A stretch of 63,991 nucleotides of DNA, counting the filler, from Octopus bimaculoides (lineage: Eukaryota): NCBI RefSeq assembly GCF_001194135.2. It is 10 parts of 9 records of this genome, joined end to end, with 100 filler letters (N's around TTAATTAATTAA, not from the genome) between each part and the next. Parts side by side here need not be neighbours in the genome. Positions count along the whole stretch, not along the records: positions 1 to 7,938 come from NC_068982.1; positions 8,039 to 10,236 come from NW_026381215.1; positions 10,337 to 15,523 come from NC_068997.1; positions 15,624 to 19,615 come from NC_068997.1; positions 19,716 to 50,932 come from NC_068983.1; 5 more parts are not named here. One strand, 5' to 3'. The notes under the pieces are model-generated. The model did no database searches and had not been told where the DNA came from. It saw nothing but the letters and a program-made list of their open reading frames with translations. The position numbers and the translations under genes were made by a program. Positions 1,945 to 50,680 of the stretch are shown here, one piece after another (the first letter of the stretch is position 1; each line of letters opens with the position of its first letter).

Positions 1945-2136
1945 CATATACATACAACAGGTTAGACTGTTGGAAAAGAAAATTTCCTAACACTGGGCTA
2001 CAACAAGTAACCTTGGATGTCAAGAACCCTCCTAAGTATCCTAGCTGTCCCTAATAACAGTTTTCTGGAGTTGTACTAAACTGGGTTTTATGCCTATTTT
2101 CTCTATCCATCTGTTCAAATCTTTAGGAATAGTTCC
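1945..2136 (-). mobile_element. R4/Dong-like non-LTR retrotransposon 3' end (RLE C-terminus), copy 1
   Basis: Minus translation GTIPKDLNRWIEKIGIKPSLVQLQKTV/LGTARILRRVLDI (one frameshift); 5' junction lies directly on the (TAA)n array 2137-2195. Confidence 0.8.
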
Positions 2137-2195
2137 TATTATTATTATTATTATTATTATTATTATTATTATTATTATTATTATTATTATTATTA
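2137..2195. repeat. (TTA)n/(TAA)n microsatellite between two Dong-like copies
   Basis: Pure TAT/ATT run. Confidence 0.95.
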
Positions 2196-2365
2196 GGATT
2201 GCTAGATATCAAGCTTAGGTATCTAGCACCTTATAGCTCTTACAGTGAGAGCCAAGCAAACATATTTTCTATAGAATCTGGAAATTCCTATTGATATCCA
2301 GCATTTGCAACCAACCATTCCAATTTCTTGCAACTATTCCTCAGGCTCTTATTTCACTGGGGATA
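2196..2365 (-). mobile_element. R4/Dong-like 3' end, copy 2 (older)
   Basis: Minus translation IPSEIRA*GIVARNWNGWLQMLDINRNFQIL*KICLLGSHCKSYKVLDT*, a short UTR, then (TAA)n. Confidence 0.65.
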
Positions 2366-2736
2366 AATGATCTTTCCTTTTTTTTCATTTTCTGCCTTTG
2401 TAGCAATATTCTCAGTGAAATACATCTTCCTCTACCCTTCTGTTATATGTAACATCAGTATCCTCTTATTTCTGAGTGTAGGGAAGAAACACTTAACATT
2501 GCAATGGGAAATGTCAGCATGAGAAACTGGTAATCACTCAATGTCATAATCTGAGCATAGTCAAGCCTTTGACAACTAAACCAACAACTCCACTCAGCAT
2601 TCTTACTGAGGAGGGTGCTTTTTGTGTTTGTGTTTTTTCTTCTTCTTTTTTTTGGCCACCATGCAGAATGTAAAAAAAAAACCTGTCAAAAGGTGAATGA
2701 ACTCAAGAGGGTCAACAGCCATCTATATAGCATCTA

Positions 2737-2888
2737 TACTACTACTACTACTACTACTACTACTACTACTACTACTACTACTACTACTACTACTACTAAT
2801 AATAATAATAATAATAATAATAATAATAATAATAATGATAATAATAATAATGATGATAATAATAATAATAATAATAATAATAGTAATA
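2737..2888. repeat. Compound (CTA)n-(TAA)n microsatellite
   Basis: Directly visible. Confidence 0.95.
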
Positions 2889-2889
2889 A

Positions 2890-3112
2890 GCACTACTGGG
2901 TACTGCACACATAAGCACTACTGGGTACTGCACACATTGCACTACTGGGTACTGCACACATTGCACTACTGGGTACTGCACACATTCTACGCAAAACACT
3001 TTCAATACAGTAAACATAAGAGCACCACAGCAAACAACAGCACATACCCAAGGCGCACAGAGCTGCGCTCGGTAGTGAGTGAAAGTGCGTTATAAAAATA
3101 AAACTACTGAAC
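2890..3112 (+). mobile_element. R4/Dong-like 3' end, copy 3, with a 24-bp unit repeated four times at the 5' junction
   Basis: GCACTACTGGGTACTGCACACATT x4; the last unit continues as ALLGTAHILRKTLSIQ*; about 100-bp UTR; (TAA)n on both sides. Confidence 0.85.
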
Positions 3113-3499
3113 AATAATAATAATAATAATAATAATAATAATAATATGAATTCTAAATAACTAACACTTGTAAAGTTATCACTATTTCAAACATTTATTA
3201 TAAATATATATTTCATTAGATATCAATAAAGCTATTGCAAATATGTATAATTTCTTTGTTAATCGAATATTTTACTACCAATAGTATCATTACTTGTTTC
3301 TTTCTTTACTATAATGATGTAATAATAACTAAATATAACACACCTACTATCCATTGAAATAGTACTGATGTCAGTAAGATATATTTCTCTAAATTTAGAT
3401 ATTTACTTTGTCAATTCATTTGCTTTAAACTACCAACATAGTTTGTTTTGCATATCTTCCTTTGACATCTTAATATATTCTTTCCAAGGCAATATATTA

Positions 3500-46807: not shown

Positions 46808-46929
46808 TATCTATCTATCTATCTATCTATCTATCTATCTATCTATCTATCTATCTATCTATCTATAGATAGATAGATAGGAAGATAGATGGCTGGACGG
46901 ATGGATAGATAGAGAGAGAGAGAGAGAGA

Positions 46930-47110
46930 GAGAGAGAGATAGCGGCATTTCGCCCGTCTTCACGTTATGAGTTCAAATTCCGCCGAGGTTGACTTCGCCT
47001 TTCATCCTTTCGATCTCTATAAAATAAGCAGCAGATCAGTACTCGGATCGATGCAACTGACTAGAGTCCCAACACTGAAATTTCTTGCCTTGGGCTAAAA
47101 TCTGAAACGA
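46930..47110 (+). mobile_element. SINE family A, 5'-truncated
   Basis: gagttcaaattccgccgaggttgacttcgcctttcatcctttcg core. Confidence 0.75.
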
Positions 47111-48879
47111 ATATTTATAACTTCGTTGCAAAAAGGTAAAGAAAAAAGTATACTGATATTTTTATATACCTCCGTGGTCAGAAACATTGTATTTTGCGAC
47201 CTGTTTAGTCTCTATTAAGTTATTACTCAGAATATATATTATATTATATTTGTTTTTTGTGCCATCATTGTTGTCGTTGTTGTTGGTTTCTGTTATATTG
47301 TACAAAATAAAACTCAGATGAAATAACCAGTGAAAGTCGCTGATAGCGTGGTTGATATATGTGTGTTTTTACATTTGCTTACACCTCACAGCGTGGATTG
47401 AAAATATCAATTTCTATTGGTGACATAAACTCCCTTTTCAATCTCAATATCCTCGTTTGGATATTTACTCAATTTTTATTCCGTCAAGTTCATTATACTA
47501 CCATAATATGTATCATAAATTCAATATATATCACTATGCACAAAAAGCAAATTCTTTCAATATAGATGAGATCCTCCCAATCTCATCTCATTACATATTT
47601 TATATGTAAATATATATATATATGGTGAGAGAGAGAGAGAGAGAGAGAGAGGTAAATATGCAGACAAACAAATTAGGTACATCAAATTATGCTTATGGGA
47701 ATCGCTAACCATACTTCGCCACCACAACCCCTCATTACTCAATAGATTCTCATGTAATATTGTCTTGTGAATACAAGTTCTACTCGTCCTTTGCCAATTT
47801 TATTAAGTATATGTAGTCCCATAACTATAATAATCCTTAAGTAAAATAACCTTGAAGTACGAGAAGGTCAGCATAGCAACTTCCTACCTTAACTAATACC
47901 ATTAAACTATTCTTTCTGGTTGTTGGATCCGCATATTCCTCTAACCCACCACATCCCACTAGCCTCAGAGTCTCCCCAACATCAAAAATGGTACCCTTTC
48001 CTACCTCTCATTTCTCCTTTTTAACTAAAAGCACTTAATACTACCAATTAGATACTAGCCTATCAACCTCCCCCTCTCTCTCTATTCATCTCTCCCTGTT
48101 CAATTTCATACACCTCTGTATATTTCAGTACTCCCTCTCCAATACCAACTGACTTCCCTTATCCTATTAACCACTGCTATCTTGACCACCAATTGACCCA
48201 CACCCTGTCCCCGTCTTCTCTCATACCGTTCAACATACCTTTCTGACACTCAACTAGACACTTTACCTCCTTCAAATAGTTCTCAGCTTCCAATGATTCT
48301 ATAGTTATTATCCCTACTCTTTGATTCCTAAACACAAATCCAACACAACTCACTACCATTCAAATACTATCTTTTCTACCCCCCCCCCCTATTTATCTTC
48401 CAACTCTGCACTTCTACTACCATCTCTCTTAGTACCCTTAAAATTAACCCCTCACTCTTCCTGAACTATCTTCCATCTTCTCACGACTCCCTGCCGTAAT
48501 ACCCTCATAGACCCACCAACCTTCCTATTTCCCCATTCTATACAGCTAGCGCTCGACATTTAATGATTCCATCTTTGAACTTCCCTGTATTAAGATCGGA
48601 GATGTATGATCTCTTCTACCATGATGAGGGAGGCTCGTTTCCCCCAATATTGGGATGAATTTACCAAAATTATTTCGAATCTGTAAGACCCCAGAGATAG
48701 TTGTTGGATTTATAACACCTTTCTTCTGCCTCTATATATTTATGCTTAAAAATTCATCATCTGGAAGACTCCACATTCTGGTTTCTCACGTTTGCCTGTG
48801 AAACCAGAATGTACGAAATAGTTTCGTACCCAAACTATTAAATATATTTAATGAACCTAATTTGCTTCAGGGAGTAAAG

Positions 48880-49215
48880 TCGTATGTTTTCTGAACCTCT
48901 CCCCGTAGCTTATCCGCTGCACTGTTTCAATCCGTTTAATGTAGTGGCGTTGCGCTGCTTCAAACTCCACTGTTAGTCTGGTATTATGTGGTGACCTTAG
49001 CGTAGAACAGTAGTCGAGGCGGCTGAGAACAAAGATCTTCCACAAGGTCAACGTAACACCTTGGTCTCTTGTTTTGAAGGTTATTAGTATCCACGCTGCC
49101 AGTTGCTTGCATTTCGCTGCCATCTTGGTAATGTGCAAATGAAAGGATTCATCATTTCACATACTGATCACCAAGTCTTTCACTACCTGTGACTTTGGCA
49201 TTGCAGTGCCTTCGA
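48880..49215 (-). mobile_element. CR1/L2-group LINE ORF2 post-RT fragment
   Basis: VKDL.ISM*NDESFHLHITKMAAKCKQLAAWILITFKTRD...LWKIFVLSRLDYCS...E.AQR..IKRI.....SYGER matches the CR1-type post-RT pattern. Confidence 0.75.
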
Positions 49216-49429
49216 ATCGTGTACATGAAAGCCGCATGTTTGAAATTTTTCAGCATTAAACCGCATGTGTGTGTGTGTATATATATATATCTATTGATAA
49301 ATATATAGGTATATAGATAGATAGATAGATAGATAGATAGATAGATAGATAGATAGATAGATACACACACAAAAAAAATACTTGTGTGTGTGTGTGTGTG
49401 TGTGTGTGTGTGTGTGTTGCTTTATGTAT

Positions 49430-49545
49430 ATCCTTGTAACTTAGCGATTCAGCAAGTGACCGACAGAAAAAGAATCAGGCTTTAAAAGATAAGTATTGTG
49501 TTCGATTTCACCGAAAGCCCATTCCAGGCAGTGCCATAAAAGATA
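49430..49545 (-). mobile_element. SINE family B tail fragment
   Basis: + strand gtaacttagcgattcagcaagtgaccgacagaa...aagtattgtgttcgattt resembles the tail at 51130-51230; orientation assignment tentative. Confidence 0.45.
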
Positions 49546-50365
49546 CTGAAAAACTCGTATGTGCGCTCATATATATANNNNNNNNNNNNNNNNNNNNNNN
49601 NNNNNNNNNNNNNNNNNNNNNNNNNNNNNNNNNNNNNNNNNNNNNNNNNNNNNNNNNNNNNNNNNNNNNNNNNNNTATATATATATTCATGCACGCACAC
49701 GCAGACACACAAACATACAAGTACTCACACAGGCTGAAGTACGATCGTACTCGATTTTGAAAACGCGCCTGAAGATATAACGAGAAAGAGAGATAGAGAC
49801 CTACAGATAGAAGATATTTCTCATTATTCAAACTTAAATAACGAACATTAATATAGAAATCTTGACCTACTTAGACTCGGGCTCACAACCACTCACATAG
49901 GCACACTCTCACATACATGATCGCATACTCATTGAAAATTACGCCTGCTGTAGAAGCACTTTTACAAGAGCGTTATAAATGGTACGTACAGTATTTTTTG
50001 ATTAATTGTATATACCCGACCACACACATTCACTGAGAAGCACAAACGCCATCCAGTAATTGATTTTTCGTTCCTGATTAAAGAATTGATTAATTCGCGT
50101 CCTATTTTGACATTAAAGAGGGAATTTATAAAAAATGAATAAAAAGAAAAAGTAACAATAGTAGACTGTGCTTCGCAAATAAATAGCGCATTCAAAAGCA
50201 TTACAAATACATCATCTAACCTCGTTTATACTTTTTTTAACTCACACTTATTCACCTACCACCGGCTGACACAAAACGATATAAACGTAAGTTTGCGTGT
50301 GCTGTGTGGTAAGTACATATTCATTATTATGATTACTATTATTATTATTATTATTATTATTATTA

Positions 50366-50680
50366 GAAAACTCACACCTTATTTTGCTGGATATGAAAGA
50401 AAGTATCAGCTGTCCATAGCTAGAAGAATAACGTGACACTTGTTTAAAGGTCATGCTTTAAGAACCCTGCGAAGAATTCTTGCATTTCGAAGTAATGCTG
50501 ATTTTTGTAGGTGTTCTACCTTCACACTTGCAACGGTCTTTTTCAGCCATGTTGGTAGTTGAGTGCTGATACTTCCAAGTGCACAAATTACTATTGGTGT
50601 CACGTCTACTATCTTCATTGACCACAACCTTCGTGTTTCCCACTTTAAATCGTCGTAGTTGTTTATTTTTCTTCTTTCAC
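50366..50680 (-). mobile_element. R4/Dong-like 3' end, copy 4, inside (TAA)n
   Basis: Minus translation NYDDLKWETRRLWSMKIVDVTPIVICALGSISTQLPTWLKKTVASVKVEHLQKSALLRNARILRRVLKA* (stop 50451-53), 85-bp UTR, (TAA)n on both sides. Confidence 0.9.

What the first reader, a model, noticed from the sequence alone, without database searches (positions are those of the whole stretch)
1945..50680. Multiple R4/Dong-like retrotransposon families colonising (TAA)n microsatellites
Four mutually diverged fragments (1945-2136 -, 2196-2365 -, 2890-3112 +, 50366-50680 -) encode the C-terminus of an R4-clade restriction-like endonuclease (PIVIGALG...LQK..LLGTA.ILR.VL). Each abuts (TAA)n on its sense strand, and 2890 and 50366 have it on both sides. 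Their 3' UTRs look unrelated, which points to several families. Established: Dong-type R4 elements insert into TAA repeats. Inference: this genome hosts a radiation of (TAA)n-specific elements. The ORF track does not recover these frames.
Basis: partly seen in the sequence, partly recalled or inferred. Interest (0 to 1): 0.75.

Follow-up and report, generated by a model that had tools for sequence, protein, structure and literature searches.

The report
Dong-type retrotransposons stacked in TAA repeats
These are short leftover ends of five different families of jumping genes sitting in TAA repeats; they likely belong to the known Dong group that homes to such repeats, so this is mostly ordinary, although the families are separate lineages rather than one burst and one of them has TAA in front of it far less often than the others.

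Summary
The four fragments are real: 3' ends of high-copy, 5'-truncated non-LTR retrotransposons whose long copies carry RT, a CCHC knuckle and an R2-like endonuclease fold. A fifth, very young family (H, 50727-50932) was missed; the array on D's 5' side is shared with its tail. Sense-strand (TAA)n lies at 5' junctions in C 22/38, D 15/23, H 8/8 visible, but A only 13/57 (control 17/262). B is too old to test, and its array interrupts its 3' UTR. Neighbouring elements are co-oriented 67:5. 'A radiation' fails as one clade (AU p=1e-7): several old lineages share one target. TAA targeting by Dong, including in molluscs, and abundant Dong-R4 in octopuses are in print, and this scan found the same on other DNA before. 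Placement against named Dong/R4 references could not be run. Side result: a three-part composite (leader + another family's 3' end + TAA + family A) lies at 12 dispersed loci.

The parts
1945..2136 (-). Family A, 192-bp 5'-truncated 3' end (last ORF codons with a frameshift, 68-bp 3' UTR)
   Evidence: (2221 first-look candidates, 40 scored, 89-92% identity)
2139..2195 (-). (TAA)19 array: 5' junction of A, lying inside the 3' UTR of B
2196..2365 (-). Family B, old decayed 3' end, cut about 45 bp before the family's usual end; profile match extends weakly to 2394
   Evidence: (15 other copies, 67-86%)
1913..1944 (-). Degenerate AAT/GAT array behind A; also the tail of the SINE on the other strand
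1703..1912 (+). tRNA-type SINE (A/B-box reading recalled) whose ATT/ATC tail faces A's tail; a second copy at 1488-1702
2737..2889 (+). (TAC)20 then (TAA)n array at the 5' junction of C
2890..3112 (+). Family C, young 5'-truncated 3' end with four tandem 23-bp units at its 5' junction
   Evidence: (39 other copies at 94-98%)
3113..3145 (+). (TAA)10 tail of C
50339..50365 (-). (TAA)9 tail of D
50366..50680 (-). Family D, 315-bp 3' end; its 5' break falls right after an internal AAT of the element
   Evidence: (2768 candidates, 40 scored, 87-90%)
50681..50726 (-). TAA array between H and D (tail of H and 5' flank of D)
50727..50932 (-).
   Evidence: (39 other scored copies at 99-100%)
629..751 (-). 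Old internal fragment (linker before the zinc knuckle) of a further R4-like copy
   Evidence: (tblastn E 0.003-0.008 against the window)

Best explanation
These are dead, 5'-truncated copies of five distinct families of restriction-like-endonuclease non-LTR retrotransposons, likely of the Dong/R4 clade, that likely insert by target-primed reverse transcription into TAA repeats that were already there. Shown: domain content of long copies, TAA tails, sense-strand TAA at 5' junctions (strong for C, D, H; weak but above control for A), one polarity in stacks, separate lineages. Inferred from R2 biochemistry: the protein binds the element RNA, nicks the (TTA)n strand, the freed 3' end pairs with the RNA's UAA tail and primes cDNA; synthesis stops early and the 5' end joins the target, often at an AAT microhomology. 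Every insertion leaves new TAA arrays, and an abundant SINE supplies the same duplex with its ATT tail, so families of different ages stack in one direction. Inferred order here: B first, then A into an array at B's 3' UTR; D first, then the much younger H into the array on D's 5' side.
For: RT (PF00078, E 1.3e-7); invariant CCHC and PD residues in 96 sequences; predicted C-terminal model (pLDDT 93.7) matches R2 structures best (9nl3, E 2.1e-10, TM 0.75); N-terminal model's top rows are Myb domains (TRF1 Z 5.5, rmsd 3.1, 61 aligned). 5' junctions, at least 3 perfect TAA units within 30 nt: C 22/38, D 15/23, A 7/37 and 6/20 in a second sample, H 8/8 visible; antisense 1/98; control 17/262. Tails (relaxed): A 39/44, C 69/71, D 25/26. 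Neighbouring R4-like ends 67 same strand, 5 opposite. Behind the tail: antisense SINE 3' end 22/134, sense SINE 5' end 0/134, same-strand R4 24/134, opposite 1/134. SINEs behind 7 young C/H copies are at most 79-86% like any other fetched SINE while those copies are 95-100% alike, so those arrays likely came first. [quoted passage not shown]
Against: Family A lacks any array at 37 of 57 scored 5' junctions, and so do 12/38 C and 5/23 D; some of these are mapping artefacts or inversions. No target-site duplications at A's array-free junctions (1/37 with a match of 8 or more, shuffles 5/357). The SINE itself often has TAA arrays on both sides, so for old copies the order SINE/LINE is open. Samples are top-scoring hits, not random; 46 of 144 copies were dropped (29 gaps, 8 locus edges, 9 reference limits). 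No empty site was seen. No named Dong, R4 or Rex6 sequence was available for the tree. The Myb match is below Z 8.
Confidence: 0.85

Rival explanations
1. No targeting: arrays are only 3' tails, and 5' arrays arise after insertion by slippage from a short duplicated AAT.
For: Fits most family-A copies (37/57 without 5' array); 5' breaks often fall at an internal AAT; the genome is rich in microsatellites.
Against: H 8/8 and C 22/38 with long 5' arrays; young copies sit in tails of older SINEs and other families' tails with one polarity (67:5); antisense arrays 1/98.
Confidence: 0.07
2. Family A has a truly relaxed endonuclease (short or degenerate AAT/GAT/CAT sites), unlike C, D and H. This is a variant of the best explanation for A only.
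For: 12/56 against 14/22 for D at the same age (mean pairwise identity 0.887 and 0.888; p=0.001); A-driven composites show a 5' array in about 3 of 12 (read by eye).
Against: About 12 of 37 array-free A junctions lie in or near same-strand R4 coding sequence, which fits insertion into a stack followed by deletion; A copies come from short queries and may be more often broken afterwards.
Confidence: 0.5
3. The elements belong to another RLE clade (HERO, NeSL-related) that also prefers microsatellites.
For: Some HERO and Togen families target microsatellites (PMC4640811 passages); the fold match is to R2, the only RLE element with a structure.
Against: No zinc finger before the Myb-like domain in full-length homologues or in G000 copies; closest named relatives come from Acropora, Exaiptasia, Oculina and a fish, two of which are genera listed for R4/Dong-like elements in PMC7998251; TAA target.
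Confidence: 0.06
4. A single recent radiation inside this genome.
For: At least 11 multi-copy 3'-end clusters among 164 ends; D and its sister family do group together.
Against: G000 rows need 10 changes on a 66-row tree, at least 6 forced by strong branches; one clade rejected, p=9.6e-8; A's RT piece is 61% identical to an outside protein but 43-51% to other G000 families.
Confidence: 0.05

Closest known systems
Dong (Bombyx mori), DongAg, DongBg (snail Biomphalaria) and ostracod Dong1/2; R4 clade
   Same: RT plus C-terminal RLE, Myb-like N-terminus without zinc fingers, (TAA)n target (PMC7998251 and PMC3812793, passages seen)
   Different: Here at least 11 3'-end clusters of several lineages coexist and stack; family A has TAA at only about a fifth to a third of 5' junctions; no HDV-like ribozyme was found at the 5' ends examined (Dong has one, PMC3774820 passages)
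'Dong-R4' LINEs annotated in octopus genomes
   Same: Abundant and multi-family: 5 recently active families, 1129 insertions in O. vulgaris (PMC13282606, first third read plus term search); expanded in coleoids (PMC8967140 passages); a full-length Dong consensus in O. bimaculoides (PMC9115989 passages). That this window is octopus is my inference from its repeats, not a call result.
   Different: The passages I saw give no target analysis: 'target' and 'TAA' have 0 occurrences in PMC13282606, 'target site' and 'microsatellite' 0 in PMC8967140. Their supplements were not read.
R2 retrotransposons (R2Bm, R2Tg, R2Pm)
   Same: Zinc knuckle plus RLE fold; TPRT mechanism borrowed from them
   Different: R2 targets 28S rDNA and has N-terminal zinc fingers; 15-20% identity

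Membership tests
R4/Dong clade | Central RT domain in a single long ORF | tested here: met
   PF00078; near-full-length A copies cover about 1000 of 1114 residues of a single-ORF homologue. No unbroken ORF was found in G000; B and H were not followed to full length.
R4/Dong clade | C-terminal CCHC knuckle and PD-(D/E)xK restriction-like endonuclease, no APE | tested here: met
   Invariant C39, H48, C53, P121, D122, K153, Y157; best structural matches are R2. Modelled for family C only.
R4/Dong clade | N-terminal divergent Myb/SANT domain without zinc fingers | tested here: inconclusive
   Three-to-four-helix model; Foldseek no match at E<=0.001; VIA top rows are Myb domains at Z 5.0-5.5; no CCHH motif seen by eye. 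Family A only.
Dong subgroup | Insertion into (TAA)n with TAA on the sense strand | tested here: met
   C 22/38, D 15/23, H 8/8 visible against 17/262
Dong subgroup | (TAA)n targeting by families A and B | tested here: inconclusive
   A 12/56, above control (p=0.0014) but below D (p=0.001); B too decayed
R4/Dong clade | RT phylogeny with named Dong, R4, Rex6 against R2, NeSL, HERO, CRE | not testable with these tools
   No named reference among 240 listed homologues or in the Atlas; two source papers not held
Dong subgroup | 5' HDV-like ribozyme | tested here: inconclusive
   No ribozyme family in an Rfam scan of 8 loci; the true 5' ends are uncertain and copies are about 20% diverged

The most novel reading that the evidence does not exclude
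The shared TAA target works as an assembly line for new elements: a 1.1-kb leader related to another R4 family's 5' region, the 3' end of a second family, a TAA array and a near-full family-A element became one unit that was copied to at least 12 sites on 10 contigs, and family A, unlike its neighbours of equal age, has loosened its TAA specificity. One genome would then hold a natural series of Dong-type endonucleases with strict and relaxed targeting, plus 5'-end swapping by stacking.
Probability: 0.5. Interest if true: 0.5.

Novelty: new member of a known kind. Interest (0 to 1): 0.3.

Why it matters
The core result is expected: Dong-type elements home to TAA repeats and are abundant in octopuses. 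What this adds is a count of junctions per family and the finding that several old lineages share the target with different strictness. That could serve as a comparative set for asking how the Myb-like and RLE domains read a microsatellite, a question of some use for R2-style insertion tools. The composite unit suggests how stacked insertions can hand one family a new 5' end.

Tried and rejected
Long 'open frames' of 725-1435 aa reported for family C are assembly gaps read as X; no intact ORF was found. Pfam has no RLE model: nothing useful for the C-terminal pieces. Sequence search of PDB gave only weak R2 hits (E 0.0014). Foldseek on the N-terminal model found nothing. TSD search: none at array-free A junctions and none across SINE-plus-LINE nests. 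Rfam: only simple-repeat matches below gathering scores. RNA reads of run X24 cover a C and an H copy about equally on both strands (5605 reads); this fits passive transcription or an unstranded library and is not used as evidence of activity. The sequencing-run list was not used for host or habitat. The careful 66-row tree did not finish; the quick tree was read instead. My notebook entry that D 'sits nested in' H's tail has the order wrong: H copies are 99-100% alike and D copies about 88%, so H came later. My first idea that A's 5' end was a simple TAA junction was dropped after one search showed a shared upstream piece. Literature searches without a paper on target analysis or composites of cephalopod Dong; subscription journals and Repbase are not searched.
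Full report
Labels: A = 1945-2136(-), B = 2196-2365(-), C = 2890-3112(+), D = 50366-50680(-), H = 50727-50932(-). The window is a pack of ten stretches. A, B and C lie at G000:C2:152.03 Mb; D and H at G000:C3:154.24 Mb. The host is probably an octopus; that is my inference from repeat content, not a call result.

Observation. All four fragments translate to the last residues of an R4/Dong-like ORF. Full-length natural homologues hit D at E 1e-13 to 1e-8 and A, B, C at E 5e-4 to 0.02 within the window; a profile of the C-terminal 83 columns scores D 70 bits, B 13, A 13. 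Each is a dispersed repeat: first-look candidates D 2768, A 2221, C 146, B 16, H 530; scored identities D 87-90%, A 89-92%, C 94-98%, B 67-86%, H 99-100%. The 3' UTRs of A, C, D, H do not align better than shuffles except a short A-H word. B's array is not its natural tail: other B copies continue about 45 bp past that point.

What the elements are. Long A copies cover about 1000 residues of a 1114-aa single-ORF homologue and carry RT. The C-family C-terminus has invariant CCHC, PD and K..Y residues across 96 sequences; its model (pLDDT 93.7) matches seven R2 structures at E<=4.5e-6 and nothing else at E<=0.001. The A-family N-terminus folds as a small helical domain whose best rows are Myb domains at Z 5.0-5.5, suggestive only; Foldseek found nothing. 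This layout is the one described for R4/Dong in PMC7998251 (passages). No named reference could be fetched, so the clade assignment is by features.

Target test. 144 unique A, C and D 3' ends were mapped against long natural copies; 46 were dropped (29 gaps, 8 locus edges, 9 reference limits). Three or more perfect sense TAA units within 30 nt of the 5' junction: C 22/38, D 15/23, A 7/37; allowing one-mismatch triplets 26/38, 18/23, 10/37; antisense 1/98; controls 17/262 in the same loci and 44/3820 in the window (each family count includes the window's own copy). A second A sample from an exact pattern (30 loci; 5 duplicates, 3 edges, 2 gaps dropped) gave 6/20. Without the window copies A is 12/56 and D 14/22 (p=0.001); A is still above control (p=0.0014). 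A and D are equally diverged (0.887, 0.888). For H, 21 of 30 loci end in a gap, 1 was limited by its partner, and the other 8 all have long TAA arrays (read by eye). Tails are near universal. About 12 of A's 37 array-free junctions lie in or near same-strand R4 coding sequence, and no TSDs were seen.

Pre-existing targets and stacking. Behind the tail (134 scored, 10 not assessable) stand an antisense SINE 3' end 22 times, a sense SINE start never, a same-strand R4 element 24 times and an opposite one once. For 7 young C/H copies the adjoining SINE is at most 79-86% like any of 88-139 other fetched matches, so the SINE tail likely came first; for old copies the order is open because SINEs are often TAA-flanked on both sides. 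Neighbouring R4-like ends within 1.5 kb are co-oriented 67 to 5. Loci were chosen as top hits, so these are not genome-wide rates.

Families. 164 unique C-terminal ends form 11 clusters of two or more plus 19 singletons, some of them decayed members of the same families. On a quick 66-row tree of the last 230 aa the 23 G000 rows need 10 changes, at least 6 forced; C and H group with coral and fish proteins, A, B and D elsewhere. Holding 12 G000 rows together against 16 others is rejected (p-AU 9.6e-8). Most outside proteins are unnamed, the trees are unrooted and RT was not used. So several old lineages share the target; vertical persistence and horizontal arrival are not told apart here.

Mechanism. 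Shown: domains, tails, 5' arrays, polarity, lineage structure. Inferred from R2 (established knowledge): nicking of the (TTA)n strand, priming on the RNA's UAA tail, early termination, 5' joining at microhomology; D's break does fall right after an internal AAT. Inferred order from ages: B then A; D then H.

Known work. TAA targeting by Dong, DongAg and snail DongBg: PMC3812793 and PMC3636483 (passages); TAA target in most insects, molluscs and cnidarians: PMC7998251 (passages); Dong ribozyme: PMC3774820 (passages); RLE clades: PMC4640811 and PMC5678591 (passages); Dong-R4 in cephalopods: PMC13282606 (first third and term search), PMC8967140, PMC9115989, PMC10294476 (passages). No supplements were read; repeat libraries there may already hold these families. 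This scan reported Dong stacks in TAA repeats on other DNA at least five times; look-ups by sequence and by genome found nothing on the composite.

Side result. Near-full A copies at four loci share the same upstream piece. A search across that junction gave 12 of 30 loci, on 10 contigs, with another family's 3' end, a TAA array and A starting at the same base. They share a non-coding leader upstream of one fixed break that resembles the 5' region of D's sister family at 69-77%. The simplest reading is a stack that became a master element; it is not tested by RNA or empty sites, and the window's 192-bp A piece cannot be assigned to it.

Verdict. Real, correctly recognised, and of a known kind; 'several families' holds, 'a radiation' does not, and TAA specificity differs between families. 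Interest 0.3.

Noticed in passing
L275-L285, L298 (e.g. G000:C6:9303349-9304049; C4:112816466-112817151; C20:25593041-25593753): Composite unit: shared non-coding leader, about 420 bp of another R4-like family's 3' end with one fixed 5' break, a TAA array, then family A from one fixed base. 12 of 30 loci on 10 contigs, varying 5' extents, unrelated flanks. The leader has about 150-bp tandem repeats and is 69-77% like the 5' region of D's sister family. Segmental duplication not formally excluded.
   Followed up: partly
window 776-909(-) and 5511-5644(-): 5' and 3' pieces of a non-coding element of about 490-600 bp, co-oriented with the R4 copies: sense TAA before 17/27 starts and after 24/31 ends, antisense 0. 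Matches the hitchhiker described in e1-10333100.
   Followed up: partly
L267, L270, L272: A second kind of family-A 5' end, with a different shared upstream extension of at least 250 bp.
   Followed up: partly
window 62232-62513(+): RT fragment of another LINE type, 27-29% identical to the R4-like proteins; L1/Tx1-like by recalled motifs.
   Followed up: no
L090: Two family-C copies face away from each other, each with an inverted piece at its 5' junction.
   Followed up: no
L022, L026, L036, L098: Family A next to the (GAT)n/(ATC)n tail of another repeat (RTE-like by recall), a one-mismatch version of the target.
   Followed up: no
L070, L093, L149, L173, L227, L231: The same unidentified repeat end follows C and H tails at several loci.
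   Followed up: no
3' UTRs of A, H and two other clusters: A short shared pyrimidine/TTGT word near the start or middle of otherwise unrelated 3' UTRs; could be a protein-binding signal or chance.
   Followed up: no
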